Source: Alphaproteobacteria bacterium (GTDB taxonomy: Bacteria > Pseudomonadota > Alphaproteobacteria > GCA-002720895). From it: a DNA stretch of 62,213 bases. The stretch's first letter is position 1, and the number at the start of each line of letters is the position of its first letter. A program made the translations under genes and the position numbers. The stretch spans positions 1 through 62,213 of the forward strand of contig JAKUPP010000002.1 of assembly GCA_022450705.1 (NCBI GenBank), read 5' to 3'. Positions 12,263-31,540 of the stretch are shown in pieces. Below the pieces are notes generated by a model. The model saw only the letters and a program-made list of their open reading frames with translations. It was not told where the DNA came from and ran no database searches.

Positions 12263-12275
12263 ATTATATAATATA

Positions 12276-15580: not shown

Positions 15581-15595
15581 ATAATTTTTTTTTAA

Positions 15596-17248: not shown

Positions 17249-17308
17249 AAAATTTAATTATAACTTTAATTTATCTTAATAATAGGTCAGTTATACTGAC
17301 TAAATATT

Positions 17309-17330
17309 CGTTGATTTACAACGGTTTTTT
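17309..17330 (+). promoter_or_regulatory. Inverted repeat CGTTG-N5-CAACG followed by GTTTTTT in the gltD leader (terminator-like hairpin or operator)
   Basis: Read directly from the sequence. It lies between the divergent uppP and gltD starts, with no upstream plus-strand gene to terminate. Confidence 0.25.
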
Positions 17331-17385
17331 CAAAAAAATCTTATTTTTACTACAATATTATAAAGGATTAGTTATATTTATATTT

Positions 17386-18798: not shown

Positions 18799-21700
18799 AA
18801 AAAAAAAATAAAAATTTTAAAAAACTTTTTAAATCAGGTATTTATAATACATCCCAAGAACATGACAGCTGTGGAGTTGGATTGGTTGCCTCCATTAACG
18901 GACAACATAATAGGGATGTTGTAGAAGCAGGAATAAAAGCATTAAAAGCAGTGTGGCACAGAGGTGCAGTTGATGCAGATGGTAAAACTGGAGATGGAGC
19001 AGGCATACAAATTTCATTTCCGCAAGAATTTTTTAAAGATTACATAAGATCTCTAGGAGTAGTTCCTTCAAAAAAAAATATTGGAGTTGGAATGATTTTT
19101 TTACCAAGAACTGATATGGTTTCCCAAGAAATATGTAGAACAATAACTGAGAGAGAGATTATTAATTCAGGCAATAAGATCTATTGCTGGAGATCTGTTC
19201 CTGTTAATTTAACTGCTGTAGGACAAAAGGCAAATGATAATAGGCCTGAAATTGAACAAATATTTTTTGAAAATTCTAAAAATTTAAAGGACGATGAATT
19301 TGAAAAAGAATTATTTATTTTAAGAAGAAAAATTGAAAAAAGAATTCCTCCAAATGCAAAAAAAGATTTTTATATATGTTCTTTATCATCAAAATCGATC
19401 ATATACAAAGGAATGTTTCTTGCCGAACAAATTGATAAATTTTATCCTGATTTAAATCATAAAGCATTCATTTCAAATTTTGCAATTTTTCATCAAAGGT
19501 ATTCAACTAATACTTTTCCAACTTGGTCTTTAGCTCAACCTTTTCGTGTTTTGTCACATAATGGTGAAATAAATACAATCCAAGGAAATATTAATTGGTC
19601 AATAATTCATGAATCAAAAATGTTTTCTGAAAATTTAGGAGAAAATATAAAAGAAATTTTTCCTATAATTCAAGATGGAGCATCTGACTCGGCTGCTTTA
19701 GATTCTTTTTATGAATTATTATTACATTCTGGAAAGGATTTACCCATGATAAAAGCACTAACTATTCCTGAAGCAAAAAATAAAAATCAAAATAAAAAAA
19801 TTAAAGATTTTTATGAATATTGTTATTCAGTTTTAGAACCTTGGGATGGCCCAGCAGCTATTGCTGCTTATGGAAAAGATTGGGTTATAGCTGGTATGGA
19901 TAGGAATGGATTTAGACCAATGAGATATACTATTACAAATAAAAATATTTTATTTGTTGGTTCAGAAACAGGAATGGTTCAGATAAATAATGCTGATGTT
20001 GTAAAAAAAGGTCATATTGGTCCAGGTCAAATAGTAGGAGTAAATCTTAAAGAAGGTAGATTTTATAATTCAGAGGCTATTAAAAATGATTTAGTTAATC
20101 GACATCCTTATCATAAATGGTTAAAAAGAATTAAAAAATTTATAGCACAAAATAATATTTCTCAAAATAATTCTTTATATTTCAAAGAAGACGATTTGAA
20201 AAAGCGACAAATGGCTGCGGGTTGGAATATAGAAGATTTAGAATTAATTTTAGATCCAATGACATTTGATAAAATTGAAGCTGTAGGCTCCATGGGGGAT
20301 GATACACCTATAACTTTATTATCAAAAAATTATCGTGGTTTGTATCCATTCTTTAGACAGAATTTTAGTCAAGTAACTAATCCACCTATGGATTCATTAA
20401 GAGAAACCAATGTTATGTCATTAAACACAAGGCTTGGCAATTTGTGTAATATTTTAGAAGAAAGCGAATCTCAATGTAATTTTATATTACTTCAATCTCC
20501 TTTTCTTTTAACATCAGAATATGAATATTTAAAAAAAAAATTAAAAAATAAATCTAAAGAAATTGATTGTATTTTTAGTGTTAATAAAAAAAGTGAGAAT
20601 TTAGAAAAATCTTTAAAAAAAATACAAGAGGAAGCAGAGGAATTAGTAAGAAGTGGTGTTGAACATATTTTATTAACAGATCGTAAGGTTAATTTAAAAA
20701 CTGCTGCAATACCAATGCCTTTAGCAGTTGGAGCAATCCATACCCATTTAGTTAATGAAGGTCTTAGAAGTTTTGTATCAATTAATGTACAGGCAGCTGA
20801 TATTTTAGATGTACATTCTTTTGCTGTTTTAATTGGAGTTGGCGCTACAACCATAAATCCGTATTTAGCTGAAAGAACAATTTTAAATAGATATAAAAAA
20901 AATAATTCTTTAGGTATAAATTCAAAAGAAGTTGTAGAAAATTATAAATCATCAATTGAAAAAGGACTTTTAAAAATAATGTCTAAAATGGGCATTTCTG
21001 TTTTAAGTTCATATAGAGCAGGGTATAACTTTGAAGTTGTTGGATTGAACAGAACATTAGTAGCGGACTTATTTCCTGGTATGCCATCAAGGATATCAGG
21101 CTTAAGATTCAATGAAATAGAAAATAAAGTTATCAATTTACATACCAAAGCTTTTAAGGAGCAATTTTTGTCTTTACCAATTGGCGGATATTATAAATTT
21201 AGAAAAAATGGAGAAAATCATTATTATCAACCAACATTAATTCATACTTTACAAAATGCTGTAAATAATAATTCATATGAAAAATTTAAAGTTTATAGCA
21301 AAGGTATAGATAATCTTCCATTAATTAATATCAGAGATTTATTTGCATTTAGAAATTTGAAAAAAGAAGTTTCATTAAGCAAAGTTGAACCTGAAGAAAA
21401 TATTTATAAAAGATTTGGGAGTGGTAGCATGTCTCATGGAGCATTGTCTAAAGAAGCTCACGAAACTTTAGCAATTGCAATGAATAGAATGGGAGCATAT
21501 TCCTGTAGTGGTGAAGGAGGAGAAGATGAAAAAAGATTTATAAGTCTACCAAATGGAGATAGTAAAAATTCTAGAGTAAAACAAATAGCATCTGGAAGGT
21601 TTGGCGTTACGGCAAAATATTTAAATAATTGTAAAGAAATTGAAATTAAAATGGCCCAAGGAGCAAAACCTGGAGAAGGTGGACAATTACCAGGTTTTAA

Positions 21701-23309
21701 AGTGTCTGAAGAAATTGCACAATTAAGACATTCAACCAAAGGAGTAACATTGATTTCTCCCCCACCTCACCATGATATTTATTCAATTGAAGATCTTGCG
21801 CAACTTATTTATGATTTAAAACAAATAAATCCTGAAGCTAGAGTATGTGTAAAATTAGTTTCTCGATCTGGAATCGGAACAATCGCAGCAGGTGTGGCAA
21901 AAGCGAAAGCAGATACAATTTTAATATCGGGACATTCAGGAGGAACCGGAGCTAGTCCTCAAACAAGTATTAAATATGCAGGTACACCATGGGAATTAGG
22001 TTTATCTGAAGTCCATCAAATTTTAGTTGCTAATAATTTACGTCATAAAGTTCGTTTACGAACTGACGGGGGTATAAAAACTGGAAGAGATGTTATTATA
22101 GCTTCTATATTAGGAGCGGAAGAATATGGTATTGGAACAACCTCTTTAGTTGCAATGGGTTGTATACTTGTTAGACAATGTCATAGCGATGTATGTCCTG
22201 TCGGTATATGCACACAAAAACCTGAATTAAGAAAGAAATTTGAAGGTACGCCAGAAAAAGTTATAAATCTTTTTTCATTTATAGCAAGAGAGTCTAGGGA
22301 ATTATTATCACGATTAGGATTTAATTCTATAAATGAAATTATTGGAAGAACAGAATTATTAAGACAAATTAGCAAAGAAAATATAACAGTTGACACTATT
22401 GATTTAAATTCATTATTAGTCAAAGCAGAGTCTAAAAATCCTGTATACTGTACAATAAAGAAACGAAACGAAGTTCCTGAAAGTTTAGATAAAGAAATTA
22501 TTAATGATCTATTAGTTAAAAGAAAAAATAATAAATTAGGAAAAATTAATTTAAATTATTTTATAAAAAATACAGATAGGGCTATCGGAGCAAAATTATC
22601 ATCATTTATTACTAATAAAAAATTAGAAATAAATGAAAAAGAAATAATACAAGTTAAATTAAAAGGTAGCGCAGGTCAGTCTTTAGGTGCTTTTTTAGTA
22701 AAACAAATTGAAATTTTTGTTGAAGGAGATGCGAATGATTATGTAGGTAAAGGATTAAGTGGAGGAAAAATAATAATTAAACCTGGTGCAAATTCAAACT
22801 TTCTTCCGGATGAAAATATAATTATTGGTAATACAGTTTTATATGGAGCTACAAGCGGAGAACTTTTTGCAAATGGTCAAGCAGGCGAAAGATTTGCAGT
22901 AAGGAATTCAGGAGCCAATGCTGTTATTGAAGGTTGTAGTAATAATGGTTGCGAATATATGACTGGTGGAACAGTGGTGATTTTAGGTAAAGTTGGTGAA
23001 AATTTTGCTGCTGGTATGACAGGTGGAATGGCTTTTATATATGATATCGATAATATTTTTCCTAATTACATAAATACTGATTCTGTGATTTATTGTAAAT
23101 TAAATAAGTCTTATTGGGAAAATATTTTAAAAGACTTAATTCTTCGCCATATAAAATTTACTAACTCAGAGCTAGCAAAAAAAATAATTGCAAAATGGTC
23201 AACCGAGAAAAAAAATTTTTGGCAAGTAGTGCCATTAGAAATAATTGATAAATTAGAAAAACCTATATTAACTGAAAAAAATACAGTTTTACAAAAAAAA
23301 TTAGCTTAA
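18792..23309 (+). CDS. gltB: Glutamate synthase large subunit
   Basis: 1505 aa. N-terminal Ntn amidotransferase Cys (HDSCGVG), FMN/3Fe-4S central domains, C-terminal GXGXG repeats. 7-nt overlap with gltD. Confidence 0.97.
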   Translation: MLEKKNKNFKKLFKSGIYNTSQEHDSCGVGLVASINGQHNRDVVEAGIKALKAVWHRGAVDADGKTGDGAGIQISFPQEFFKDYIRSLGVVPSKKNIGVGMIFLPRTDMVSQEICRTITEREIINSGNKIYCWRSVPVNLTAVGQKANDNRPEIEQIFFENSKNLKDDEFEKELFILRRKIEKRIPPNAKKDFYICSLSSKSIIYKGMFLAEQIDKFYPDLNHKAFISNFAIFHQRYSTNTFPTWSLAQPFRVLSHNGEINTIQGNINWSIIHESKMFSENLGENIKEIFPIIQDGASDSAALDSFYELLLHSGKDLPMIKALTIPEAKNKNQNKKIKDFYEYCYSVLEPWDGPAAIAAYGKDWVIAGMDRNGFRPMRYTITNKNILFVGSETGMVQINNADVVKKGHIGPGQIVGVNLKEGRFYNSEAIKNDLVNRHPYHKWLKRIKKFIAQNNISQNNSLYFKEDDLKKRQMAAGWNIEDLELILDPMTFDKIEAVGSMGDDTPITLLSKNYRGLYPFFRQNFSQVTNPPMDSLRETNVMSLNTRLGNLCNILEESESQCNFILLQSPFLLTSEYEYLKKKLKNKSKEIDCIFSVNKKSENLEKSLKKIQEEAEELVRSGVEHILLTDRKVNLKTAAIPMPLAVGAIHTHLVNEGLRSFVSINVQAADILDVHSFAVLIGVGATTINPYLAERTILNRYKKNNSLGINSKEVVENYKSSIEKGLLKIMSKMGISVLSSYRAGYNFEVVGLNRTLVADLFPGMPSRISGLRFNEIENKVINLHTKAFKEQFLSLPIGGYYKFRKNGENHYYQPTLIHTLQNAVNNNSYEKFKVYSKGIDNLPLINIRDLFAFRNLKKEVSLSKVEPEENIYKRFGSGSMSHGALSKEAHETLAIAMNRMGAYSCSGEGGEDEKRFISLPNGDSKNSRVKQIASGRFGVTAKYLNNCKEIEIKMAQGAKPGEGGQLPGFKVSEEIAQLRHSTKGVTLISPPPHHDIYSIEDLAQLIYDLKQINPEARVCVKLVSRSGIGTIAAGVAKAKADTILISGHSGGTGASPQTSIKYAGTPWELGLSEVHQILVANNLRHKVRLRTDGGIKTGRDVIIASILGAEEYGIGTTSLVAMGCILVRQCHSDVCPVGICTQKPELRKKFEGTPEKVINLFSFIARESRELLSRLGFNSINEIIGRTELLRQISKENITVDTIDLNSLLVKAESKNPVYCTIKKRNEVPESLDKEIINDLLVKRKNNKLGKINLNYFIKNTDRAIGAKLSSFITNKKLEINEKEIIQVKLKGSAGQSLGAFLVKQIEIFVEGDANDYVGKGLSGGKIIIKPGANSNFLPDENIIIGNTVLYGATSGELFANGQAGERFAVRNSGANAVIEGCSNNGCEYMTGGTVVILGKVGENFAAGMTGGMAFIYDIDNIFPNYINTDSVIYCKLNKSYWENILKDLILRHIKFTNSELAKKIIAKWSTEKKNFWQVVPLEIIDKLEKPILTEKNTVLQKKLA

Positions 23310-25438
23310 TTATAAAATAATTTAGATTTTTTTCTTTCTAGTTTAACTCTATCAAAAATAAAAAATAAAACTATAAACTGCATAATTCCATGTTCTTTAT
23401 CCATATAATTTGGTGAAATAGCTAAAATTTCTTCTAAATTTTTTGAGATTTTCTTTAATTCTGATTTAAAATTTTTTAAAATCATATCCTTAGAATTTAA
23501 TTCAATACTTAAATAATTTTTTTCTTCTTTATATTTAAAATTTTTAAAAATTTTTGAGATTACATTCTTTAGTAAACTTGTATTTATTTCTTTTTTTATT
23601 AAGAATTTAATTTTTGTTTCTACCCATTCATTATTATATTCTTTTTTCACATTCTTTTCATTTAAAGAATTAATTTGAAAAATAATATCCGCATATTTTT
23701 TTTGTTTTTTTATATAAAGATCTGAATCTTTTTTTCTTCTTTTAATTTCGTGAATTATTTCTTTTTTTTTATATTTTCTTCTTTTTATATCACGATTAAT
23801 TTTAAAATATTTTCTTAAATTTTCATTTACATCTAAAAAAATAGAAATGTCTGTAATATTTCTTACTTTTTGGCAATACAATGAATGGAGTCCTATTATT
23901 AAAACAAAATCTTTTTTCCTTATTTTTTTTTTGTAGGTAAATTTTCCTGTTTCGTGGTCATATTCTCTACAGATTACCGTCTTACCATTTTTTAAAGAAA
24001 TACAATCTTTTTCAAATTGTTTTAAATTATTAGCTTTAGGATTTAAATGAGTTAACTTCCCCCATTTTTTTGAATTTCTTTCATAAAGATGGTAATCGTC
24101 TCCGCTTAATGAAGCTACGGAGTTTTCTCCAAAGACACCACCAATAGCCTTTCCTAAAGTATCTTTTCCAGCGGCCGAATCTCCTGCGATTCCAATTAAT
24201 ATTGGTTTATAAACTAATCTAAAGAATTCATTTTCAAAAATATTTTTTTTAATCATAATATAAACTAAAATTAATCCAGTAATTGACAATATTGCTAAAC
24301 TCCCATCTTTTGCTAAATCAAATGATAATTTTTCTAGGTTTGTTAATAAAATAGTAGATAAATCTTTATTTATGTAATAGTAATCCATTTTAAAAAAATG
24401 AATTATAGATCCATCATCTATAATAAGTTTGTTAAAAACAAAAATTATTGAAAATATTAAAACTCCATTTTTAAAAAAAATTGAATTTGTATTTATTTGG
24501 AAAGCAACTAAAAAGGGTACAACCCACAAATACCAACCTATTTCAGCTGGTGTAAAAATAAGTATAATAAAGAAAGCAATACCAAGAAAAGAGTACAATA
24601 AATTAAAATTCATCCGCCCAATTTTGTAAGCAGCAAAAACTAAAATTAAATAAAGAATAGGCGCGATATATAAGATAATATTATTAAATAAAGTTGTACT
24701 TCTAAAAACTGTATCAAAGGCAGGATTATTTAAAGTCATTTCCTGAAATCCTAATGTGTTAAAGAAAGGACCTTGAATAACAAATATTGTTAGCAGAATA
24801 GTTAAAGTAAATTTCCAGAAAATTTTATAATACCTATTATTCAATAGTAAATAAAAACAAATAAATGGAACTGAAATAATCATGCTTAATTTACAAGCAA
24901 CTGTTAAACCAAGGGTTATTGCAGATATAAAAAAAAATTTTTCTTTTAAAAGATATAAAGAAAGTATTAGTAGAAAAGTAGGAAATATGTCTAACTGACC
25001 ATGCCAGTATGAAATATATAAAACAATAGGTGAGAGCCAATAAAAAAGAATAATTTTTTCTACTTTTTCTCTAAATAATTTTCCTAAAATAAATAAAATA
25101 GATAAGTCTGCAGCAAGTATACTTGATTTAAAACCAATACTTAAAAAATAATTTTGAGCTTGGGATGCAAAATTTAAATTATCGATAATAGAACCAATAA
25201 AACTTAAAGGTAACTGTAAAACTAACATTATTGGTCCATAAGGATAAGATAAAGGATCTTGGCCTGTATTATAAAAATTAGTCCACGGATCAAATGAAAA
25301 ATTTTCTATTGTAAAACTTATAAATTTTAGAAACCATTTATCTTGAATTACTGGTGCTAAAAAAATTATAGCAGTAATTTTAATTAGAAAACCAAACCAA
25401 AAAAATTTGTTATTTTTTATTTGATAAAATAAATTCAT
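23306..25438 (-). CDS. Fusion protein: polytopic GT-C-like membrane domain (aa 1-400) plus uridine kinase/phosphoribulokinase-family P-loop kinase domain (aa 410-600) plus K-rich C-terminal tail
   Basis: At least 10 TM helices with an early loop motif SYPYGP. The kinase half aligns block by block with E. coli Udk: ILIGIAGDSAAGKD (Walker A), GDDYH, VLIIGLHSLY, ISIFLDV, KKYADIIF. Confidence 0.6.
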   Translation of the reverse strand: MNLFYQIKNNKFFWFGFLIKITAIIFLAPVIQDKWFLKFISFTIENFSFDPWTNFYNTGQDPLSYPYGPIMLVLQLPLSFIGSIIDNLNFASQAQNYFLSIGFKSSILAADLSILFILGKLFREKVEKIILFYWLSPIVLYISYWHGQLDIFPTFLLILSLYLLKEKFFFISAITLGLTVACKLSMIISVPFICFYLLLNNRYYKIFWKFTLTILLTIFVIQGPFFNTLGFQEMTLNNPAFDTVFRSTTLFNNIILYIAPILYLILVFAAYKIGRMNFNLLYSFLGIAFFIILIFTPAEIGWYLWVVPFLVAFQINTNSIFFKNGVLIFSIIFVFNKLIIDDGSIIHFFKMDYYYINKDLSTILLTNLEKLSFDLAKDGSLAILSITGLILVYIMIKKNIFENEFFRLVYKPILIGIAGDSAAGKDTLGKAIGGVFGENSVASLSGDDYHLYERNSKKWGKLTHLNPKANNLKQFEKDCISLKNGKTVICREYDHETGKFTYKKKIRKKDFVLIIGLHSLYCQKVRNITDISIFLDVNENLRKYFKINRDIKRRKYKKKEIIHEIKRRKKDSDLYIKKQKKYADIIFQINSLNEKNVKKEYNNEWVETKIKFLIKKEINTSLLKNVISKIFKNFKYKEEKNYLSIELNSKDMILKNFKSELKKISKNLEEILAISPNYMDKEHGIMQFIVLFFIFDRVKLERKKSKLFYN

Positions 25439-25440
25439 TT

Positions 25441-26043
25441 TTATTTATTCCATATTTCAGGATTTTTTGTACACACAGCATCAATATGTATATTTTTTTT
25501 TTGGATAGAATTTTTTAGTTTTTTTAAATTTTGTATCGATGTTTTTTTTACTATTTCAGGAGAAACTATACATATTTTTATATTTTTTTTCTTAAGGCTA
25601 TTTGAAATTGATTTATTTAAAGGAAACTTAGAAAAATGATCTACCCATACCCAATTAATTTTTTTTTTTAAATTATTTATAGTTTTTATATCTTCATATT
25701 CGGAAAATCTTATAGCACACCTCGTTTCATTTGAATTTAATGTTTTTATAAGAAAAGGAAAAGATTGATCAAGAAAGAAAAAGTCTTTTATTTTTTTATT
25801 CTTTAAGATTTTTATAATATATTTTTCCAGACCTTCTTCTTTAATATTAATTATTAAAAATTTATGATTATATTTTCTTATCCAATTATCTAGAAATTCT
25901 CCATTTTTCATTGGATCATGGTTTAAAATAATTTTGTTATTGTAACTTCTAACATCTATTTCTACCCCATATTCTGTAGGAGTATCAATTAATTGTTTAA
26001 TTGTGTTTTTTCTATGACAAATTATTAATGGTTTTAAATACAA
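25441..26043 (-). CDS. Glycerophosphodiester phosphodiesterase (GDPD)/PLC-like TIM-barrel protein, short form
   Basis: IICHRKN ... GVEIDVR ... ILNHDP ... LIINIKEEG match the GDPD HR / E-x-D / HD / E-x-K catalytic blocks (compare UgpQ). Confidence 0.5.
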   Translation of the reverse strand: MYLKPLIICHRKNTIKQLIDTPTEYGVEIDVRSYNNKIILNHDPMKNGEFLDNWIRKYNHKFLIINIKEEGLEKYIIKILKNKKIKDFFFLDQSFPFLIKTLNSNETRCAIRFSEYEDIKTINNLKKKINWVWVDHFSKFPLNKSISNSLKKKNIKICIVSPEIVKKTSIQNLKKLKNSIQKKNIHIDAVCTKNPEIWNK

Positions 26044-26051
26044 AATACTAT

Positions 26052-26750
26052 TTACAATTCTTTTTTTAATTGAAAACTATATTTTATAGTTCTTTTTATA
26101 AATTTCATTTTATTTTTAAAATCCGTGTTCCAATGTGATACACCAAACTTTCTTTCAGGATATTTAACAGGGAACCGGAGTATTTTTAATTTTTTTTTTT
26201 TGGCATTAAAGTAAAAAAATAAATCAAAAGAAAAATCTAATGGAATTTTTTCTAACATATTAAAAAAATTTTTATGAAAAATATTTGGTTGAGCATTAAC
26301 ATCCCAAAAAAATTTTTTTAGTAGAATTGTTTCAAAAATAGACATTCCTATTGTAAAAATAATATCTTTTAAAGGCCTACCCAGCCTATTTCCTTTAATA
26401 AAAATTTTAGGAGACAATTCTTTTTCAAATTTCTCAAAACCTATAATTACATCATATGGATCTGTTTGTAAATCAGCATGGGTCCATGAAATATATTTTC
26501 CTTTTGCTTTTTTTAAACCTTGAAGAATACCATTCCCATATCCATTATTTTTTTTTAACTTTATCATTTTAAGAAAATTATAATCTTTTTTTAAATTTGA
26601 TATGATTGTTTCAGTTGAATCATTTGATCCATTATTAACAAGAATTAATTCTACATCTTTTCGTTTTAATTTTTTTGAGAAATCTTTTACAAGTTTTGGC
26701 AAACTTTTTGCTTCATTAAAACATGGAATTACTATTGATAAATTTATCAT
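26052..26750 (-). CDS. Glycosyltransferase family 2 (polyprenol-phosphate glycosyltransferase-like, soluble form)
   Basis: LSIVIPCFNE, ELILVNNGSNDST and downstream D-x-D-region spacing typical of DPM1/ArnC-type GT2. Confidence 0.75.
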   Translation of the reverse strand: MINLSIVIPCFNEAKSLPKLVKDFSKKLKRKDVELILVNNGSNDSTETIISNLKKDYNFLKMIKLKKNNGYGNGILQGLKKAKGKYISWTHADLQTDPYDVIIGFEKFEKELSPKIFIKGNRLGRPLKDIIFTIGMSIFETILLKKFFWDVNAQPNIFHKNFFNMLEKIPLDFSFDLFFYFNAKKKKLKILRFPVKYPERKFGVSHWNTDFKNKMKFIKRTIKYSFQLKKEL

Positions 26751-26752
26751 TT

Positions 26753-28327
26753 TTATATTGGATTATTTATTTTGTACGAATGGTTTTTCCATAAATTAAA
26801 ATATTCTTGCCAATATTTAAAAGTTTTTAATTCATTAGGGGTTCCCCAAGGCAAGTAATCATCTACTAAGAAAATTTTACATTTGTAACCGAGTTTAATA
26901 GCGTCATTTATAGATGTATCGATATAAAATTCATTATTAACTAAAGCTTTTCGTTTAATCATTTCATTAACAGAATTAATAAAATACTCTATTTTTTTGA
27001 AAGTAAAAGTGCCTAATACTACAGGACTGTCTTTAATATTTTTTAAAGGTTTTTTTACTGATATATAATCTATATTTTCTTTATTTTTTGTTTTAACCCA
27101 ACCAAATTGTTTTGGATTTCTAATAGATTCAAAATGATTTTTTGCCGCCCATACAATTATGTCAGTATTCAATTTATTGTAAAGATTTAGAAATTTTTTT
27201 TCATTAAATATTAAGCCTGTATCACACGAACCTATTGTTACTGGTATTTCTTTATTTTCTTTTTTTAATGTTTCAAGACATGTAATAGCTTGTCCATTCG
27301 TATGCTTATTTAATGAAAATATTTTTACTTTCGGAAAATGTTTTTTTATTTTTTTCTTTAGGGATTTAGAAGAATTATTTTTTTTTGATATTATTACTTT
27401 GGAATAATAATGTTTAGGATGGGTTAACATACTTTGAACTATCATTGGCTTTCCAGAAATCTCTATAAGAGGTTTATGTGTTTTGTAACCTTCTTCAATA
27501 AATCTTAGACCCTTGCCTGCTGCCGGTATAACTAAAACTCCTTTTAATTTTTTTTTTTTAAACTTCTGAATTTTTGAGAATTTTTCTGACCAATTTTTAT
27601 ATTCATTAAAATCCTCTGGCGTTCCCCACTGACTAAAAAAATTAATTTTATAAAACCCAACTTTCTCAGAGTTATTGATCATCGGTTTATAAATCATACT
27701 TATATAATATTCACCTTTTGTCTTTAAGTTATTTTTAAATGATTTATCTAGACAATTCTCAAGAATTTCTTTGTTTTTGAAATAATATGTTCCACTAGAT
27801 GTATATTCATTTATAGGATTCTTGGTAAATGGCTTTTTTTCTTGAATTGCTAAAACTTTTTCTCCCCTTTTTTTTATATATGCAAAATAAGATTTATTTA
27901 TTGTGCTTGGATGAAAATCTTTATAAACAACCACACATCCATCATATTTCTTTTTTTTAACAACCTTTTTAAAATTTTTATAGTTCCAATAACAATTAAA
28001 ATCACAATAATTTATTATTATTGGTCCTTTATTACTTATTTGATTTAATACTTTTGATACACTAAAAGCTGGTCCAAGATTATGAGAATTAATACTAACA
28101 ATTTTTCCAGTAGGGCATTTTTTTTTTAAAATAGAAGATAATTTTATTTTTTTATTTGATAATTGTTTTTTATCACAAATAAATAAAAAATTCTTTTCGC
28201 CTGGAAATAAATCTATAACATGCTCAATTACAAATTTATTATTTATTTTTAATAAAAATTTTGGAGTTTTAAAACCCGCCTTTTTAAAACGGATACTTTT
28301 TCCTACCATTGGAATTATTATTTGCAT
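26753..28327 (-). CDS. Tandem (duplicated) sugar/polyol-phosphate nucleotidyltransferase
   Basis: Two homologous halves. Each starts with a G-x-G-x-RF NTP-binding loop (IIIPMVGKSIRF...TPKFLL; VLVIPAAGKGLRF...HKPLI) and ends with WGTPEDFNEYKNW / WGTPNELKTFKYW. Confidence 0.65.
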   Translation of the reverse strand: MQIIIPMVGKSIRFKKAGFKTPKFLLKINNKFVIEHVIDLFPGEKNFLFICDKKQLSNKKIKLSSILKKKCPTGKIVSINSHNLGPAFSVSKVLNQISNKGPIIINYCDFNCYWNYKNFKKVVKKKKYDGCVVVYKDFHPSTINKSYFAYIKKRGEKVLAIQEKKPFTKNPINEYTSSGTYYFKNKEILENCLDKSFKNNLKTKGEYYISMIYKPMINNSEKVGFYKINFFSQWGTPEDFNEYKNWSEKFSKIQKFKKKKLKGVLVIPAAGKGLRFIEEGYKTHKPLIEISGKPMIVQSMLTHPKHYYSKVIISKKNNSSKSLKKKIKKHFPKVKIFSLNKHTNGQAITCLETLKKENKEIPVTIGSCDTGLIFNEKKFLNLYNKLNTDIIVWAAKNHFESIRNPKQFGWVKTKNKENIDYISVKKPLKNIKDSPVVLGTFTFKKIEYFINSVNEMIKRKALVNNEFYIDTSINDAIKLGYKCKIFLVDDYLPWGTPNELKTFKYWQEYFNLWKNHSYKINNPI

Positions 28328-29314
28328 TTATATTTTATTAAATTTTTGTCTTATTTTTTCTTTTTTCCAATTAATAAGTTCATTTTTTTCTTTCTTACTA
28401 AGAAATGATAAAATAAAGCTTTCAGGAATAACTATTAATAATTCAGCTAAACAAAGCAACATATCATATTCCGTTTTTGATATATTATTTTTTAGAAACA
28501 CACCGGTATTTTTTATAACTATAATCTTTTTTTCATTTTTTTTTTTTAAAAAATCATTAATTGAATTATAAGTTTTGATTTTATTATTTAAAAAAACAGT
28601 ATTATCAGGATATAAAGAATTATTATTTTTAATAATTTCAAAAGATTTTTTCTTCAGTGCTAAAATTTCAATAATTTTATCCTTTGGTTTTTTAAAGTTT
28701 TTTATAAGAAAGTTATTTTTTTTAATTTTTTTTAAATTAAAAGATATTTTTCTTTTTAATTTTGTTTCAATTTTCTTCAAGAGCGAGTTGATTTTTGTTA
28801 GAGTATCTGAAGCAATTATAATTCCATGGTTTTGTAATATATAAATATTTATATCATCTGACATTTTTTTTTCTATTTCTTTTGCTAAATTTAATCCTGG
28901 TTTTTTGTACTTTATCCAAATCCATTTCATGCCTTTTAATTTACTTTCTAAAAGTTTTTTACCATTTTTTAAAATGGCATATGATAAAACTGATATAGAA
29001 TGTAAATGCACAATATATTTTTTATTAATTATTGCATGCATAGTTGTTTCTATCGAAGGATAGCTTGCCGATTTGTAATAGATCCATTTTTTCTCATTTT
29101 CTATATTTTTTTTTATAGAATTTAAATTTATTTTTAAAAATGATTTTTTTTTTAATGAATCTTTTAACCAAGTTCCTGATGATTTTACATAAATTGAATC
29201 ATCTATTTTAATTGAAGTGTTTCCACCAGGCCCGTGAAATAAATTTTTTTTTTTACTAAGATTTTGAGAAAATTTAAAAAATTTTGTTAATTCTAATTTA
29301 ATTTTGATCCTCTT
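28328..29314 (-). CDS. Class II aldolase/adducin-fold protein with C-terminal extension (start codon unresolved)
   Basis: My translation upstream of the listed ATG (29041) stays open to 29314. It encodes HGPGGNTSIK, YVKSSG and PSIETTMH, followed by VHLHS and LQNHG, matching FucA blocks GNVS, TPTG, PSSE..H, HNH and HHG. No ATG/GTG/TTG occurs in frame upstream of 29041. Confidence 0.6.
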   Translation of the reverse strand, partial: KRIKIKLELTKFFKFSQNLSKKKNLFHGPGGNTSIKIDDSIYVKSSGTWLKDSLKKKSFLKINLNSIKKNIENEKKWIYYKSASYPSIETTMHAIINKKYIVHLHSISVLSYAILKNGKKLLESKLKGMKWIWIKYKKPGLNLAKEIEKKMSDDINIYILQNHGIIIASDTLTKINSLLKKIETKLKRKISFNLKKIKKNNFLIKNFKKPKDKIIEILALKKKSFEIIKNNNSLYPDNTVFLNNKIKTYNSINDFLKKKNEKKIIVIKNTGVFLKNNISKTEYDMLLCLAELLIVIPESFILSFLSKKEKNELINWKKEKIRQKFNKI

Positions 29315-29413
29315 TTAAAAATAACAATTTAATTATTAATTCCATACAATATATTATAAATCAATAGAATATCTTTTTTTTTAAATTTTTTAAAATATTT
29401 AGGTTTAAAAATA

Positions 29414-30577
29414 ATGACTAATATAGAAAATAAAAAAATAATTCTTCAAATTATACCTTCGATGGAAATGGGTGGCGCTGAAATGGGAACATTAGAGATT
29501 TCACGTTATATGAAAAAAAAAGGATGGAATGTGATAGTTGCTTCATCTGGTGGTTCGTTAGTAAAAAAATTAACTATAAAAAATATTCTTCATATTAAAC
29601 TACCATTAAAGTCTAAAAATCCATTAATTATTTTTTTTAATATTTTTAGAATAGCTTGGGTTATAAAAAAAAATAAAATCAAAATAGTGCATCTTAGAAG
29701 TAGAGCACCTGCTTGGAGCGCTTATTACGCATGTTCAATGTTTAGAGGGATAAAAATAGTTTCTACTATTCATGGAGCATACAGTGTCCAGAACTTTTTT
29801 AAAAAAATTTATAACTCAATTATGTTAAAACCAACATCTATCATTGCAATTTCTAAATATGTTAAAAATTATTTACTTACAAATTATAAATTTTCAAAAA
29901 GAAAAAAAGAATCAATATTTATTATTCCTAGAGGTGTGGATCTAGAAAGATTTGATCCAAAAAACGTTGATTCTCAAAGACTTTTTTTTCTTTCAAATAA
30001 TTGGCAACTACCTGACGGAATTCCAATTATATTATTTCCATCAAGAATAGCTCCATTTAAAGGTCACAAAACTCTTTTAAAAGCAATTGCAATATTAAAA
30101 AAAGATCCAAAAATTCCGTTCATTTGTTTAATGCCAGGTCTAGTGAAAAAAAATTCTAATTACGAAAATGAGTTAAATTCAATTATTCAAGATAATGAAC
30201 TTGCTGATTATATAAGATTTCCAGGGCTTTGTTTTGATATGCCCGCAGCATATAAAATATCTGACATTGTTGTATCCGCAGCTGATAAACCAGAAGGGTT
30301 TGGTAGAATAATTATTGAATCTCAGTCTATGGAAAGACCTGTAATTGCAAGCGCGCATGGAGGTTCATTAGAATTAATTAAAAATAATTATAATGGGCTA
30401 CTTTTTAAACCTAAAAATGAACAAGATTTAGCAGATAAAATTAAATATTTACTTCGTTTATCTCAAAAAGAAAAAAAAAAGATTGTAAAAAGAGCAAAGG
30501 AAATTGTTAATAAAAAATACAATATCGATAATATGTGCGAATCAAACTTTAAATTATATAACTCTATTGTCCGATAA
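29414..30577 (+). CDS. Glycosyltransferase family 4 (GT-B, retaining)
   Basis: N-terminal MGGAEMGTLEISRYM and C-terminal EGFGRIIIESQSMERPVIAS (E-x7-E region). Confidence 0.8.
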   Translation: MTNIENKKIILQIIPSMEMGGAEMGTLEISRYMKKKGWNVIVASSGGSLVKKLTIKNILHIKLPLKSKNPLIIFFNIFRIAWVIKKNKIKIVHLRSRAPAWSAYYACSMFRGIKIVSTIHGAYSVQNFFKKIYNSIMLKPTSIIAISKYVKNYLLTNYKFSKRKKESIFIIPRGVDLERFDPKNVDSQRLFFLSNNWQLPDGIPIILFPSRIAPFKGHKTLLKAIAILKKDPKIPFICLMPGLVKKNSNYENELNSIIQDNELADYIRFPGLCFDMPAAYKISDIVVSAADKPEGFGRIIIESQSMERPVIASAHGGSLELIKNNYNGLLFKPKNEQDLADKIKYLLRLSQKEKKKIVKRAKEIVNKKYNIDNMCESNFKLYNSIVR

Positions 30578-30586
30578 AATAAAGAA

Positions 30587-31540
30587 ATGGCTTTAAAAAA
30601 AAATCTTTTAATTATTAAACATGGAGCATTAGGAGATTTTATTTTATCTTTTGGTCCTTTTAAAGCTATAAGAGATTATCATTTAAATGATCATATAGTT
30701 TTGTTAACAAACAGTATTTTTAAAGAATTTGCCGAGGAAAGTAATTATTTTGATGAAATAATAATAGATGACAGAGCATCTATTTGGAATACACAAAAAA
30801 TATTTAAGTTAGCAAATTTATTAAGAAAGAAGAATTTTTATAGAATTTATGATCTTCAAACTTCACAAAGAAGTTCTTTTTATTATAATTTTTTTAGATT
30901 TAAAAATAATATTGAATGGTCAGGAGTCGCGCATGGGTGCTCACATCCTGATAGGAATCCTGATAGAAACAAAATTCATACAATAGAGAGGCATAAAATA
31001 CAGCTAGAAGAAATTGGAATCAAGAATGTAAAGTTGAGTGACTTTTCTTGGGTAAAGAGTACTAATAATTATAAGATTGAAGAACCTTATATATTATTTT
31101 CTCCGGGCGGCTCTTTACATAGATTAAAAAAAAGATGGCCAGTAGAAAATTATGTAGAAATAGCAAAAAAATTTTTACGAAAAAAAATAACTCCAGTTAT
31201 ATTAGGCACTTCTGAAGATTTGGAAATGGGAAATTTTATTTTGATGAATGCAAACGGTTGTATAAATTTAGTGAACAAAACAACAATACAAGACCTTTGT
31301 ATTTTAGCTAAAGATGCGCAATTAGCTATTGGCAATGATACAGGCCCCATGCATGCATTTTCAATGTGCGGTTGTAACTCATTAGTTTTATTTTCAGATG
31401 ATTCTAATCCTAAACGATGCGCACCTAGGGCAATAAATAAAAAGAAATTAGTTAAGATTATACAAAAAAATGATTTAAGAAATCTTACAGTTGATGAGGT
31501 TTTACATTCTTTACGTAATGACTTTAGATACGATTTGTAA
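30587..31540 (+). CDS. Glycosyltransferase family 9 (heptosyltransferase-like), second copy in window
   Basis: KHGALGDFILS N-terminus and GNDTGPMHAFSMCG C-terminal GT9 motif. Confidence 0.7.
   Translation: MALKKNLLIIKHGALGDFILSFGPFKAIRDYHLNDHIVLLTNSIFKEFAEESNYFDEIIIDDRASIWNTQKIFKLANLLRKKNFYRIYDLQTSQRSSFYYNFFRFKNNIEWSGVAHGCSHPDRNPDRNKIHTIERHKIQLEEIGIKNVKLSDFSWVKSTNNYKIEEPYILFSPGGSLHRLKKRWPVENYVEIAKKFLRKKITPVILGTSEDLEMGNFILMNANGCINLVNKTTIQDLCILAKDAQLAIGNDTGPMHAFSMCGCNSLVLFSDDSNPKRCAPRAINKKKLVKIIQKNDLRNLTVDEVLHSLRNDFRYDL

What the first reader, a model, noticed from the sequence alone, without database searches (positions are those of the whole stretch)
23306..31540. Eight-gene envelope glycan/phosphoglycan locus whose enzyme combination matches no pathway I can name
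Seen: six minus-strand genes are packed with 0-8 nt gaps. They are a class II aldolase-like protein, a tandem nucleotidyltransferase, a GT2, a GDPD/PLC-like phosphodiesterase, and a polytopic membrane domain fused to a kinase. They diverge across a 99-nt AT-only spacer from a GT4 and a GT9 gene. Established: class II aldolase-fold enzymes act on ketose phosphates. Nucleotidyltransferases activate sugar or polyol phosphates. DPM1-type GT2 enzymes load polyprenol phosphate. GT-C enzymes use polyprenol-P-linked donors at the periplasmic face. GDPD folds make or break glycerophosphodiesters. GT9 enzymes act on LPS inner core. Inference: this looks like a self-contained route from a sugar or polyol phosphate to a periplasmically attached, possibly phosphodiester-linked, surface decoration of LOS or a capsule-like polymer. 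It is not a recognisable rfa, tar/tag, lic or arn set. In a genome this streamlined, keeping about 8 kb for it argues for importance, for example in phage or grazer interaction.
Basis: partly seen in the sequence, partly recalled or inferred. Interest (0 to 1): 0.7.

Follow-up and report, generated by a model that had tools for sequence, protein, structure and literature searches.

The report
Mobile surface-sugar decoration cassette in SAR11
Five of the eight genes are an uncharacterised, horizontally mobile cassette found in many bacteria; it most likely turns a pentose-phosphate intermediate into an unusual sugar for decorating cell-surface glycans, while the other two sugar-transferase genes are just conserved neighbours.

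Summary
The genes and domain calls are real, but the "eight-gene locus" is two separate things. (1) A 6-kb operon of five genes, not six, on the minus strand (23306-29302). It encodes a class II aldolase, a two-domain nucleotidyltransferase, a DPM1/GtrB-like GT2, a GDPD-fold phosphodiesterase-like TIM barrel, and a GT-C-like membrane domain fused to a phosphoribulokinase (PRK)-type kinase. (2) A GT4-GT9 pair that belongs to the conserved gltB/GT4/GT9/thrS backbone. Close relatives have gltB followed directly by GT4, so the cassette is a low-GC presence/absence insertion, not a core trait. The same cassette is conserved in at least 80 species of Proteobacteria, Acidobacteria, Nitrospira and Geobacter, usually with a HAD phosphatase and a GtrA flippase. 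It lies in or beside O-antigen or polysaccharide gene clusters in the loci examined. It also sits between IS26 copies on an E. coli plasmid. The HAD best matches archaeal ribulose-1,5-bisphosphate 5-phosphatase. Best reading: a Gtr/Arn-like periplasmic glycan decoration system. Its donor sugar would be made from ribulose-5-phosphate via RuBP and ribulose-1-phosphate. The sugar itself is unknown, and no paper describing the cassette was found. Verdict: a new variant of a known kind, of moderate to high interest.

The parts
23306..25438 (-). Fusion protein (710 aa). The N-terminal part is a membrane domain of about 10 TM helices, GT-C-like (GT87/PIG-M-like). The C-terminal 300 aa are a full phosphoribulokinase-fold kinase. 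Its stop overlaps the convergent gltB stop by 4 nt.
   Evidence: Pfam PRK E=5e-36 and GT87 E=0.007. NCBIfam phosphoribulokinase subfamily 194.5 bits, against a cut-off of 236. Best PDB sequence hits are PRKs at 120-127 bits, against uridine kinases at about 50 bits. AF2 model pLDDT 88.6; Foldseek top hits are PRKs with TM(target) 0.8. A profile of the membrane domain hits GPI mannosyltransferase 1 at E=5e-6. Homologues carry Pfam GT87, ALG3 and ALG6/8 hits. The fusion is conserved in 73 of 83 non-redundant loci.
25441..26043 (-). Cytoplasmic 200-aa TIM-barrel protein with a GDPD/PI-PLC-like fold and catalytic motif. It is the best marker of the cassette.
   Evidence: No Pfam, NCBIfam or PDB sequence hit. 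AF2 pLDDT 93.6. Foldseek top hits are GDPDs at E=1e-6 to 1e-5, TM 0.66-0.76. Invariant H10 R11 N13 E28 D30 R32 H42 P44 and others. 2081 homologues found. PGAP names the E. coli homologue a PI-PLC/GDPD family protein.
26052..26750 (-). Short soluble GT2 (232 aa), of the DPM1/GtrB/ArnC/PpgS type that makes polyprenyl-phosphate sugars.
   Evidence: Pfam Glycos_transf_2 E=1.9e-24. NCBIfam partial hits to PgfS, ArnC and PpgS. In Lysobacter the orthologue is fused to a GtrA_DPMS_TM domain. In many other loci a separate GtrA gene precedes it.
26753..28327 (-). Tandem sugar-phosphate nucleotidyltransferase (524 aa). Both halves keep the catalytic motifs.
   Evidence: Pfam NTP_transferase and NTP_transf_3; NCBIfam GlmU/RmlA-type hits over 1-246 and IspD/G1P-CT-type hits over 265-445. 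A family profile matches PDB 4evw with domain 2 and the HddC-like 6jq8/5xhw with domain 1. GxGxR, PKPL, CD, (E/V)KxP and WGTPxD are invariant or nearly so in both halves across 29-60 sequences.
28328..29302 (-). Class II (FucA/RhaD-type) aldolase-fold enzyme with a conserved C-terminal extension of about 140 aa. Probable ATT start codon.
   Evidence: Pfam Aldolase_II E=4e-18. The best NCBIfam hits are to the aldolase half of RhaD-type aldolase/dehydrogenases; the hit to ribulose-1-phosphate aldolase is weak. A family profile matches 3m4r and L-fuculose-1-P aldolases in the PDB. Invariant N29, S43-G44, S84-x-E86, H100/H102 and H160. In-frame N-terminus without a canonical start; SD AAGAGG plus ATT is conserved in relatives.
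29303..29413 (.). AT-rich divergent intergenic region between the cassette and GT4. It is also the right-hand insertion junction.
   Evidence: 9% G+C over 29315-29413. The promoter scan found no more sites than in shuffled sequence.
29414..30577 (+). GT4 glycosyltransferase. A conserved backbone neighbour, NOT part of the cassette.
   Evidence: Pfam Glycos_transf_1 and Glyco_transf_4. It follows gltB directly in the cassette-less relatives L094, L096 and L097. It is not linked to the cassette outside SAR11-type loci.
30587..31540 (+). GT9-family glycosyltransferase. A conserved backbone neighbour, NOT part of the cassette.
   Evidence: Pfam Glyco_transf_9 E=6e-17. The heptosyltransferase equivalogs score below their cut-offs (61 against 135 bits). 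It is always followed by thrS, with or without the cassette.

Best explanation
Window 23306-29302 is an accessory, horizontally acquired operon that decorates a surface glycan (LOS/O-antigen-like or another envelope polysaccharide) from the periplasmic side. It uses a lipid-linked donor whose sugar it makes itself from the pentose-phosphate pool.

Proposed steps. Only the family assignments are shown; every substrate is inferred.
1. The cytoplasmic PRK-type kinase domain phosphorylates ribulose-5-phosphate, or a close ketose phosphate, at C1 to give a 1,5-bisphosphate.
2. In most lineages a HAD phosphatase related to archaeal RuBP 5-phosphatase removes the 5-phosphate to give ribulose-1-phosphate. 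The SAR11 version lacks this gene.
3. The FucA/RhaD-type class II aldolase acts on that ketose-1-phosphate, by epimerisation through retro-aldol/aldol chemistry or by cleavage.
4. The two-domain nucleotidyltransferase and the GDPD-fold phosphodiesterase-like enzyme convert the sugar phosphate into a nucleotide-activated glycosyl donor.
5. The DPM1/GtrB-like GT2 transfers the sugar to polyprenyl phosphate. A GtrA flippase is present in other lineages but absent here.
6. The GT-C-like membrane domain fused to the kinase transfers it to the acceptor in the periplasm.

GT4 and GT9 are separate, conserved envelope genes that happen to flank the insertion site.
For: The cassette is a unit:
- The same genes, in two fixed orders, surround the GDPD-like marker in 80 genome loci from Alpha-, Beta- and Gammaproteobacteria, Acidobacteria, Nitrospira, Geobacter and Dehalococcoidia.
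- Loci per gene, out of 83 non-redundant loci clustered (the first 88 fetched minus five duplicates): GDPD-like 81, fusion 73, NT 69, GT2 65, aldolase 63, HAD 60, GtrA 33, methyltransferase 22.
- On E. coli plasmid NZ_CP145712 the eight-gene version lies between two IS26 copies.

It is an insertion:
- L094, L096 and L097 have gltB, then about 60 nt, then GT4-GT9-thrS. L005, L010, L011, L090 and L092 carry the cassette at that point.
- G+C is 0.219 in the cassette against 0.27-0.29 in the flanks.

Glycan context:
- In Erwinia mallotivora it follows rmlA-rmlC-GT2-RgpF-wzm-wzt-gnd, before the his operon.
- In Azospirillum brasilense it sits beside wzm/wzt, gmd and GT1/GT4 genes.
- In Ca. Pseudothioglobus and Teichococcus it lies inside polysaccharide clusters with Wzz, rml and Bac_transf genes.

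Pentulose-bisphosphate branch:
- The kinase is PRK-type by sequence and by fold. The GDSGxGK, DDYHxxDR, YxHxxG, GLH, KxxRDxxxRG and PQxxAD segments are conserved.
- The cassette HAD scores best against NF053830, ribulose-1,5-bisphosphate 5-phosphatase: E=6e-50 and 170 bits, with the next family at 101 bits. That enzyme forms Ru1P and is encoded in an operon with a class II Ru1P aldolase in haloarchaea (PMC9700705).
- The aldolase keeps the FucA-type zinc, phosphate and Glu residues.

Lipid-linked route:
- The GT2 gives partial matches (all below cut-off, weaker than its PgaC match) to the polyprenyl-P-sugar synthases PgfS, ArnC and PpgS, and is fused or adjacent to GtrA elsewhere.
- The membrane domain gives GT87, ALG3, ALG6/8 and PIG-M hits.
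- A rough topology of about 10 TM helices, N-terminus in, puts the kinase in the cytoplasm.

Variant L009: an RhaI-type isomerase and an FGGY kinase sit between the NT and GT2 genes, and the aldolase and the fusion are absent. This fits a ketose phosphate as the entry metabolite.
Against: - No enzyme here has been assayed and every substrate is inferred from family resemblance.
- All the hits to characterised NCBIfam families cited here (PRK 194 against 236; RuBP phosphatase 170 against 330; Ru1P aldolase 16-19 against 300; and the NT, GT2, GT4 and GT9 matches) are below their curated cut-offs.
- The window lacks the HAD, GtrA and methyltransferase genes found elsewhere, so steps 2 and 5 are incomplete in this organism.
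- Ribulose-1-phosphate carries its phosphate on C1, not on the anomeric C2. A standard NT plus GT2 route therefore needs an extra, undemonstrated rearrangement.
- GT-C membership of the membrane domain rests on weak hits. hhalign against the Lysobacter GT87 paralogue gives only 9.9% probability, and Foldseek returned only PRK and uridine-kinase hits in its top 50.
- Most non-SAR11 cassettes carry a second, lineage-variable polytopic membrane protein. That protein might be the real acceptor-specific transferase, which would leave the role of the conserved membrane domain open.
- Roseomonas-type loci lack an adjacent GT2.
- The acceptor in SAR11 is unknown.
Confidence: 0.55

Rival explanations
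1. The decoration is phosphodiester-linked, which is. One NT domain makes an NDP-(1)-pentulose or NDP-polyol-type donor from the ketose-1-phosphate. The GDPD/PI-PLC-like enzyme acts as a phosphotransferase and attaches pentulose phosphate to a cytoplasmic acceptor, either nascent ABC-transporter-type O-polysaccharide or the lipid-linked sugar. The second NT domain, the GT2 and the GT-C handle an ordinary hexose.
For: - The GDPD-type catalytic motif is invariant and the protein has no signal peptide or TM segment.
- Both NT domains look active.
- Ru1P is not an anomeric phosphate (established chemistry).
- The associated O-antigen loci in Erwinia and Azospirillum are of the ABC-transporter type, which assembles the polymer in the cytoplasm.
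- Distant paralogues of the GDPD-like protein pair with HAD phosphatases in other ABC-transporter glycan clusters that have no NT or kinase.
Against: - To my knowledge, no GDPD-fold enzyme acts as a biosynthetic phosphotransferase in glycan assembly.
- None of the usual phosphotransferase families (LicD, TagF, Stealth, CDP-alcohol phosphotransferase) is present.
- It does not explain why the kinase is fused to the GT-C domain.
Confidence: 0.15
2. [quoted passage not shown] On this reading they are only co-located with unrelated glycosylation genes.
For: A PRK-type kinase, a RuBP-phosphatase-like HAD and a FucA-type aldolase are exactly the enzymes needed for that shunt.
Against: - The kinase is covalently fused to the membrane GT-C-like domain in 73 of 83 non-redundant loci.
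- These genes keep fixed positions among the NT, GT2, GtrA and GDPD-like genes across phyla, with overlapping or abutting reading frames.
- The whole set travels together between IS26 copies and sits in or beside polysaccharide or O-antigen gene clusters in the loci examined.
- The shunt would waste one ATP to do what transketolase and transaldolase already do.
Confidence: 0.07
3. The kinase is a uridine/cytidine kinase, as PGAP names the E. coli and JGI homologues. It would support local nucleotide supply for NDP-sugar synthesis. The sugar would then be a common hexose, and the aldolase and GDPD-like genes would be accessory.
For: - The source annotations read 'uridine kinase'.
- The Pfam family PF00485 covers both kinds of enzyme.
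Against: - PRKs score 120-134 bits against uridine kinases at 50-68 bits. NCBIfam gives PRK 192-194 bits and Udk 78-88 bits.
- The model superposes on whole PRK chains of about 300 residues, including the C-terminal sheet that Udk lacks (TM 0.8).
- The PRK-type DDYHxxDR and YxHxxG segments are invariant.
- The linked RuBP-phosphatase-like HAD makes no sense with a nucleoside kinase.
Confidence: 0.08
4. All eight genes form one LOS or capsule pathway, as the finding was originally framed.
For: - In the window and in L010, L011, L090 and L092 the GT4 gene diverges directly from the aldolase gene.
- All eight genes are envelope-related.
Against: - GT4-GT9 occur without the cassette in L094, L096 and L097, directly after gltB.
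- M23 peptidase and bactofilin genes separate the two parts in L005.
- Only 2 of the 76 cassette loci outside the SAR11 group have even a weak (27% identity) GT4 match nearby, not at the divergent position, and none has a GT9 match.
- G+C differs between the two parts.
Confidence: 0.05

Closest known systems
GtrA/GtrB/GtrC O-antigen glucosylation systems of Shigella and Salmonella phages, and the related CsbB-GtcA-YfhO systems
   Same: - A GT2 that loads a sugar onto polyprenyl phosphate, a small GtrA-family flippase (present in most homologous cassettes), and a polytopic membrane transferase acting in the periplasm.
- Accessory and horizontally mobile.
- Associated with O-antigen loci.
   Different: - Gtr systems use housekeeping UDP-glucose. 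This cassette carries four or five extra cytoplasmic enzymes (PRK-type kinase, HAD, class II aldolase, tandem NT, GDPD-like) to build its own donor.
- The conserved membrane domain is fused to the kinase.
- It is not phage-borne: no hit in 50,697 phage records and 4 hits in IMG/VR.
- The SAR11 version lacks GtrA.
Arn (PmrF) pathway, ArnC and ArnT, for L-Ara4N on lipid A; also the mycobacterial PpgS-Rv3632-Rv3779 and decaprenyl-P-arabinose systems
   Same: - A dedicated cytoplasmic sugar-modification branch feeds a short DPM1-like GT2 and then a GT-C transferase.
- The GT2 gives partial ArnC and PpgS hits.
- The membrane domain gives hits to GT87, a mycobacterial family.
- The donor comes from pentose-phosphate metabolism, as it does for DPA (own knowledge).
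   Different: - There are no ArnA/B/D, UbiA-type or DprE homologues.
- The GT-C family is not GT83.
- The precursor branch starts with a PRK-type kinase rather than UDP-GlcA or PRPP.
Non-carboxylating pentose bisphosphate pathway of haloarchaea (Sato et al. 2022, PMC9700705)
   Same: RuBP is dephosphorylated to Ru1P by a HAD phosphatase that is encoded next to a class II (FucA-type) aldolase. The bacterial cassette HAD scores best against that phosphatase family, and the aldolase is FucA-like.
   Different: - In the archaea RuBP comes from nucleosides via R1P kinase and R15P isomerase, and the pathway is catabolic.
- Here RuBP would come from a PRK-type kinase, and the genes are embedded in a glycosylation operon.
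- Scores are below the family cut-offs.
- The window itself has no HAD.
Nucleotide-heptose pathways (GmhA, HldE or HddA, GmhB, HddC) and the lincosamide GDP-octose pathway
   Same: - The logic is the same: a sugar omega-phosphate receives a second phosphate at C1 from a kinase, a HAD phosphatase removes the omega-phosphate, and an NT activates the sugar.
- NT domain 1 matches HddC-like structures.
   Different: - The kinase family differs: PRK-type P-loop rather than PfkB or GHMP.
- The substrate is a ketopentose, so the C1 phosphate is not anomeric.
- There are two NT domains plus a GDPD-fold enzyme, with no counterpart in those pathways.
Calvin-cycle phosphoribulokinase (cyanobacterial, plant and archaeal type)
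   Same: Same fold over about 300 residues (TM 0.8). The P-loop and the PRK-specific sequence segments are conserved.
   Different: - It is fused behind a membrane domain of about 400 aa.
- No RuBisCO gene turned up among the window genes I annotated (about 20 of 55 ORFs) or in the cassette loci examined; no dedicated search was made.
- It scores below the NCBIfam PRK cut-off.

Membership tests
Gtr-type three-component glycan modification system | GtrB/DPM1-like GT2 that makes a polyprenyl-phosphate sugar | tested here: inconclusive
   Pfam GT2 E=1.9e-24. Partial hits to PgfS, ArnC and PpgS, all far below the equivalog cut-offs. The orthologue is fused to GtrA_DPMS_TM in Lysobacter. Activity is not testable here.
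Gtr-type three-component glycan modification system | GtrA-family small membrane flippase | tested here: not met
   No GtrA homologue anywhere in the 62-kb window (tblastn). A GtrA gene or domain is present in 33 of 83 non-redundant homologous loci.
Gtr-type three-component glycan modification system | Polytopic GT-C-type transferase with a periplasmic catalytic loop | tested here: inconclusive
   - About 10 predicted TM helices, with a D50-P51-W52 motif (P51 and W52 invariant, D50 strongly conserved) in the first loop.
- Pfam GT87 is below cut-off in the window protein (16.5 against 25 bits) but above it in homologue P0117 (32.9 bits).
- The profile hits PIG-M at E=5e-6.
- hhalign against a bona fide GT87 paralogue gives only 9.9% probability.
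Gtr-type three-component glycan modification system | Carried on a temperate phage next to the integrase and attP | tested here: not met
   No match in the phage collection and 4 matches in IMG/VR. No integrase or flanking repeats at the insertion.
Phosphoribulokinase (EC 2.7.1.19) | Sequence above the curated family threshold, with the PRK signature segments | tested here: inconclusive
   NF005655 scores 194.5 bits against a cut-off of 236. The segments shared with Synechococcus PRK (GDSGxGK, DDYHxxDR, YxHxxG, GLH, KIxRDxxxRG, PQxxAD) are conserved across the family. In the window protein the G of RG is K.
Phosphoribulokinase (EC 2.7.1.19) | Full PRK fold, including the C-terminal sheet | tested here: met
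   Foldseek top 19 hits are all PRKs, aligned over 302-363 columns, with target TM 0.57-0.82.
Phosphoribulokinase (EC 2.7.1.19) | ATP-dependent phosphorylation of Ru5P to RuBP | not testable with these tools
   Requires an enzyme assay.
Non-carboxylating pentose bisphosphate pathway (RuBP phosphatase plus Ru1P aldolase) | HAD-type RuBP 5-phosphatase | tested here: not met
   Absent from the window. In the homologous cassette of Erwinia the HAD's best family is NF053830, at 170 bits, below the cut-off of 330.
Non-carboxylating pentose bisphosphate pathway (RuBP phosphatase plus Ru1P aldolase) | Class II Ru1P aldolase | tested here: inconclusive
   The class II aldolase fold and the FucA-type Zn, phosphate and Glu residues are present. 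NF053831 scores only 16-19 bits against a cut-off of 300.
Glycerophosphodiester phosphodiesterase / PI-PLC-like superfamily | Match to the family HMM (Pfam GDPD or PI-PLC-X) | tested here: not met
   None of 26 family members hits a GDPD or PI-PLC model at E<=1.
Glycerophosphodiester phosphodiesterase / PI-PLC-like superfamily | TIM-barrel fold with the HR, ExD and HD catalytic and metal-binding residues | tested here: met
   AF2 pLDDT 93.6. The best PDB neighbours are GDPDs, TM 0.66-0.76. H10, R11, E28, D30 and H42 are invariant. The roles of these residues are assigned from my own knowledge of GDPD structures.
LPS inner-core heptosyltransferases (GT9: WaaC/WaaF) | Score above the equivalog cut-off | tested here: not met
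   Pfam GT9 is met (62 bits against 22). Heptosyltransferase I and II score 49-61 bits against cut-offs of 135-185. It is a GT9 member of unknown specificity, and it lies outside the cassette.
tar/tag, lic, arn, rfa sets | Presence of the signature enzymes (TagF/TarL, LicA/LicD, ArnA/B/T, WaaA/C/F) | tested here: not met
   Apart from sub-threshold GT9 matches to heptosyltransferases I, II and RfaF (49-61 bits; cut-offs 135-569), no such family appears among the Pfam or NCBIfam hits of the seven proteins.

The most novel reading that the evidence does not exclude
The cassette is the missing route that activates a ketopentofuranose (ribulose or xylulose) for glycan synthesis.

Proposed route:
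1. Ru5P is converted to RuBP (PRK domain) and then to Ru1P (HAD).
2. NT domain 1 makes NDP-1-ribulose.
3. The GDPD/PI-PLC-like enzyme uses the anomeric 2-OH to expel NMP. This forms a 1,2-cyclic phosphate, which is opened to the 2-(anomeric) phosphate.
4. NT domain 2 makes the true NDP-2-ketofuranose donor.
5. GT2, GtrA and GT-C place it on the O-antigen or LOS.
6. The aldolase interconverts the D-erythro and L-threo pentulose-1-phosphates.

This would give PRK and RuBP a biosynthetic role outside carbon fixation. It would also explain why two active NT domains and a phosphodiesterase always travel together. A closely related alternative is that the product is polyprenyl-P-D-arabinofuranose or -ribofuranose, made by a non-mycobacterial route.
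Probability: 0.12. Interest if true: 0.85.

Novelty: new variant of a known kind. Interest (0 to 1): 0.62.

Why it matters
- It defines a widespread, mobile and still unnamed glycan-decoration cassette, confirmed in 300 species-level genomes. Its conserved core is a PRK-type kinase fused to a GT-C-like membrane protein. I found no report of that architecture in the literature searches I ran.
- It suggests that ribulose-1,5-bisphosphate, normally thought of only as the RuBisCO substrate, is a precursor for a cell-surface sugar in heterotrophs.
- It may bear on an open question. The nucleotide precursors and genes for pentulofuranose (Xulf) residues in bacterial O-antigens are unknown (PMC7685785).
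- For SAR11 it is a clean example of a presence/absence surface-glycan island at a fixed site in the core genome. This is the kind of variation expected to affect phage adsorption and grazing.
- The IS26-bounded copy on an E. coli plasmid makes all of this testable in a tractable host.

Tried and rejected
- Literature: nine full-text searches found no description of the cassette. They combined PRK, GT87, GT-C, O-antigen, GtrA, class II aldolase, pentuloses, SAR11 LPS and the new cyanobacterial PRK structures (one search found the haloarchaeal pathway paper).
- Sequence searches with the 200-aa protein gave nothing useful against Pfam, NCBIfam or the PDB. Only the fold search and the motif analysis were informative.
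- The fold search with the whole fusion returned only PRK and uridine-kinase hits in the 50 rows shown. The membrane domain therefore could not be placed structurally. I substituted a sequence profile against the PDB and hhalign against a GT87 paralogue, which was weak.
- I looked for direct or inverted repeats flanking the insertion. Only low-complexity AT-rich matches appeared.
- The promoter and terminator scan found no more sites than in shuffled sequence.
- The HAD, GtrA, methyltransferase, second GT87 and DUF5916 genes were searched for in the window. All are absent.
- Phage carriage: none in GenBank phages and 4 contigs in IMG/VR, not followed up.
- Link to E. coli O95/O97, the O-antigens that contain Xulf: a blastn search with the Erwinia cassette against 5,426 complete E. 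coli genomes hit only two plasmids, so no link was shown.
- Rejected the idea of a frameshifted or truncated aldolase. The N-terminal GGNxS motif is in frame, and the ATT-plus-SD arrangement is conserved in relatives.

Full report
OBSERVATION

The region holds five tightly packed minus-strand ORFs: 23306-25438, 25441-26043, 26052-26750, 26753-28327 and 28328-29041 as listed. The gaps between them are 2, 8, 2 and 0 nt. They diverge from two plus-strand ORFs at 29414-30577 and 30587-31540. I count five minus-strand genes, not six.

The fifth ORF continues in frame upstream of its first ATG and encodes the aldolase phosphate-binding motif (HGPGGNTS) there. There is no ATG, GTG or TTG before the upstream stop. 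An ATT at 29302-29300 lies 6 nt after an AAGAGG Shine-Dalgarno sequence. The same arrangement is kept in relatives L010 and L011. I therefore place the start there.

The "AT-only" spacer (29315-29413) is 91% A+T.

GENE CONTENT

The 200-aa protein has no sequence-level hit in any library.
- It has more than 2,000 homologues.
- Its AlphaFold model (pLDDT 93.6) is a TIM barrel, and the best PDB neighbours are glycerophosphodiester phosphodiesterases.
- H10-R11, E28-x-D30 and H42-x-P44 are invariant (position 43 is D or E). From my knowledge of GDPD structures these are the catalytic His/Arg and metal ligands.

The kinase is PRK-type rather than Udk-type.
- PRKs score 120-134 bits and uridine kinases 50-68 bits.
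- NCBIfam PRK scores 194 bits, against a cut-off of 236.
- The AF2 model of the whole fusion (pLDDT 88.6, pTM 0.87) superposes on entire PRK chains at TM 0.8.

A profile of the membrane domain matches GPI mannosyltransferase 1, a GT-C enzyme, at E=5e-6. Homologues carry GT87, ALG3 and ALG6/8 Pfam hits. hhalign against a clear GT87 paralogue is weak. GT-C membership is therefore likely but not proven. A hydropathy count of about 10 TM helices with the N-terminus inside puts the kinase in the cytoplasm and the conserved D-P-W loop (residues 50-52) outside (heuristic).

WHAT BELONGS TOGETHER

Full-length homologues of the fusion (33-37% identity) occur in Lysobacter, Teichococcus/Roseomonas, Ca. 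Pseudothioglobus, Dehalococcoidia and others. Their neighbourhoods repeat the same genes.

I scanned one genome per species using the GDPD-like protein as marker. It found 300 confirmed loci. In the 80 loci fetched, tblastn mapping shows the cassette in two fixed orders, aldolase-NT-(GtrA)-GT2-(methyltransferase)-GDPD-like-fusion-HAD or NT-...-HAD-aldolase.

Clustering all ORFs of the 83 non-redundant loci (the first 88 fetched minus five duplicates) gave these counts:

| Gene | Loci |
|---|---|
| GDPD-like | 81 |
| Fusion | 73 |
| NT | 69 |
| GT2 | 65 |
| Aldolase | 63 |
| HAD | 60 |
| GtrA | 33 |
| Methyltransferase | 22 |
| Second GT87 | 18 |

No other widely shared neighbour appeared. GT4 and GT9 are linked to the cassette only in the SAR11-type loci (L005, L009-L011).

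THE CASSETTE IS AN INSERTION

A metagenome scan with GT9 gave nine SAR11-type loci. Mapping them shows the following:
- L094, L096 and L097 have gltB, then 59-68 nt of AT-rich spacer, then GT4-GT9-thrS.
- L090, L092, L010, L011 and L005 have the five genes at exactly that point.
- In L005, M23-peptidase and bactofilin genes are inserted as well.

Genomes with and without the cassette are equally distant from the window in gltB and thrS (78-88% identity), so its distribution is patchy. The cassette has 0.219 G+C, against 0.27-0.29 for gltB, GT4, GT9 and thrS. The surrounding genes are core housekeeping genes: bacA, gltD, gltB on one side and thrS, infC, rplT, pheST, lepA on the other. No flanking repeats or integrase were found. 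The window has no HAD, GtrA or methyltransferase homologue.

CONTEXT ELSEWHERE

- In Erwinia mallotivora the cassette follows rmlA-rmlC-GT2-RgpF-wzm-wzt-gnd and precedes the his operon. This is the classical enterobacterial O-antigen region.
- In Azospirillum brasilense MTCC4039 it is on a plasmid beside wzm/wzt, gmd, a GDP-fucose-synthase-like gene and GT1/GT4 genes.
- In Ca. Pseudothioglobus and Teichococcus it lies in polysaccharide clusters with Wzz, rml and Bac_transf genes.
- On E. coli plasmid NZ_CP145712 an eight-gene version sits between two IS26 copies. It comprises NT, GtrA, GT2, PI-PLC/GDPD-family protein, "uridine kinase" (the fusion), HAD, class II aldolase and a 586-aa polytopic hypothetical protein. 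All carry only generic names.
- Each lineage outside SAR11 ends the cassette with a different polytopic membrane protein. This recalls the variable GtrC of Gtr systems.

MECHANISTIC CLUES

The cassette HAD scores best against NCBIfam "ribulose-1,5-bisphosphate 5-phosphatase" (E=6e-50, 170 bits). The next family scores 101 bits. That enzyme was characterised in haloarchaea. It makes ribulose-1-phosphate from RuBP with strict specificity, and it is encoded in an operon with a class II Ru1P aldolase (PMC9700705).

The cassette aldolase keeps the FucA-type residues N29, S43-G44, S84-x-E86, H100/H102 and H160. Its profile matches FucA structures. From established knowledge, FucA also cleaves D-ribulose-1-phosphate.

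A PRK-type kinase, a RuBP-phosphatase-like HAD and a ketose-1-phosphate aldolase together point to Ru5P, then RuBP, then Ru1P as the precursor branch.

Both NT halves retain the GxGxR, PKPL, CD, (E/V)KxP and WGTPxD motifs. They match different PDB relatives: HddC-like for domain 1 and 4evw for domain 2. Two nucleotidyl transfers are therefore plausible.

The variant locus L009 keeps NT, GT2 and GDPD-like intact but lacks the aldolase and the fusion. Between NT and GT2 it carries an RhaI-type aldose-ketose isomerase (556 bits), an ASRT-family protein and an FGGY kinase. This is an alternative way to supply a ketose phosphate.

INTERPRETATION

The best-supported reading is a Gtr/Arn-like system. 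A dedicated cytoplasmic branch makes an unusual, pentulose-phosphate-derived nucleotide sugar. The GT2 loads it on polyprenyl phosphate, and the GT-C-like domain transfers it to a surface glycan in the periplasm.

What is shown:
- the family and fold assignments;
- conservation of the cassette;
- its mobility;
- its status as an insertion;
- its location in glycan loci.

What is inferred: every substrate, the order of steps, the acceptor, and the roles of the aldolase and the GDPD-like enzyme.

One chemical gap remains. Ru1P is not an anomeric phosphate. The ever-present GDPD-fold enzyme and the second NT domain could close that gap through a cyclic phosphodiester (the novel case). Alternatively the decoration could be phosphodiester-linked (rival 1). 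The SAR11 version is a minimal form without HAD and GtrA. How it completes the pathway is unknown.

COMPARISON AND NOVELTY

The cassette shares its lipid-carrier logic with the Gtr, Arn and mycobacterial PpgS/DPA systems. It shares its kinase-phosphatase-NT logic with the nucleotide-heptose pathways. It shares a possible RuBP-to-Ru1P step with the haloarchaeal pathway.

It fails or leaves open defining features of each of these (see the membership table), so I do not file it as a member of any. No paper in the searchable library describes it.

A review of E. coli O-antigens states that precursor genes for Xulf residues are unknown. My search did not connect the cassette to O95/O97.

I rate it a new variant of a known kind, with interest about 0.6. 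It is a widespread, uncharacterised and experimentally tractable cassette with an unprecedented PRK/GT-C fusion.

Noticed in passing
window 29297-29314 (minus strand); L010 and L011 equivalents: The aldolase gene has no ATG, GTG or TTG start. A conserved ATT six bases after an AAGAGG Shine-Dalgarno sequence is the likely initiation codon in three SAR11-type lineages. An A11 homopolymer lies about 45 nt downstream, at about 29247-29257.
   Followed up: partly
L009 4645-10603 (uncultured Alphaproteobacteria SAG AG-464-G09): Variant island at the same gltB/GT4 site. NT, GT2 and the GDPD-like gene are intact, but the aldolase and the GT-C/PRK fusion are missing. An RhaI-type isomerase, an ASRT-family protein and an FGGY sugar kinase are inserted on the opposite strand between NT and GT2.
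   Followed up: partly
L098 (E. coli plasmid NZ_CP145712.1) 4986-17325: An eight-gene version of the cassette is bracketed by IS26 copies on a 33-kb plasmid from a human stool isolate. A second E. coli strain (ES3, from a bullfrog) carries the same segment. It looks like a ready-made composite transposon.
   Followed up: partly
L005 4704-6172: In one SAR11-type lineage, M23-peptidase and bactofilin genes lie between GT4 and the cassette. The insertion site therefore accumulates other envelope and cell-shape genes.
   Followed up: no
L101 (Scandinavium plasmid) 9001-10270; L102 (Rhizobium rhizoryzae plasmid) 9001-10399: Distant paralogues (about 30% identity) of the GDPD-like protein sit next to HAD phosphatases in other glycan clusters that have no NT or kinase (with an O-antigen-ligase family gene, WavE and an ABC transporter in Scandinavium; glycosyltransferase genes only in Rhizobium). 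GDPD-like plus HAD may be a recurrent two-enzyme unit.
   Followed up: no
window 33625-34065: The infC ORF, as listed from its first ATG, lacks the first 18 or so positions of the IF3 N-terminal domain. The real start is probably an upstream non-ATG codon, as is usual for infC.
   Followed up: no
window 23306-23309: The convergent genes gltB and the fusion gene overlap by 4 nt at their stop codons. This leaves no room for a terminator between them.
   Followed up: no
L100 (Hirschia baltica pHbal01) 8655-24090: The Hirschia locus places the GT2/GDPD-like/PRK-fusion/HAD core beside a UDP-glucuronate decarboxylase-family gene, two GtrA genes, and a 753-aa protein annotated as GT2 next to the aldolase. 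That protein may be a fused form of the NT.
   Followed up: no
L103-L106 (IMG/VR contigs): Four contigs classed as viral encode relatives of the GDPD-like protein (34-47% identity). I did not check whether these are prophage-adjacent host DNA or genuine phage cargo.
   Followed up: no
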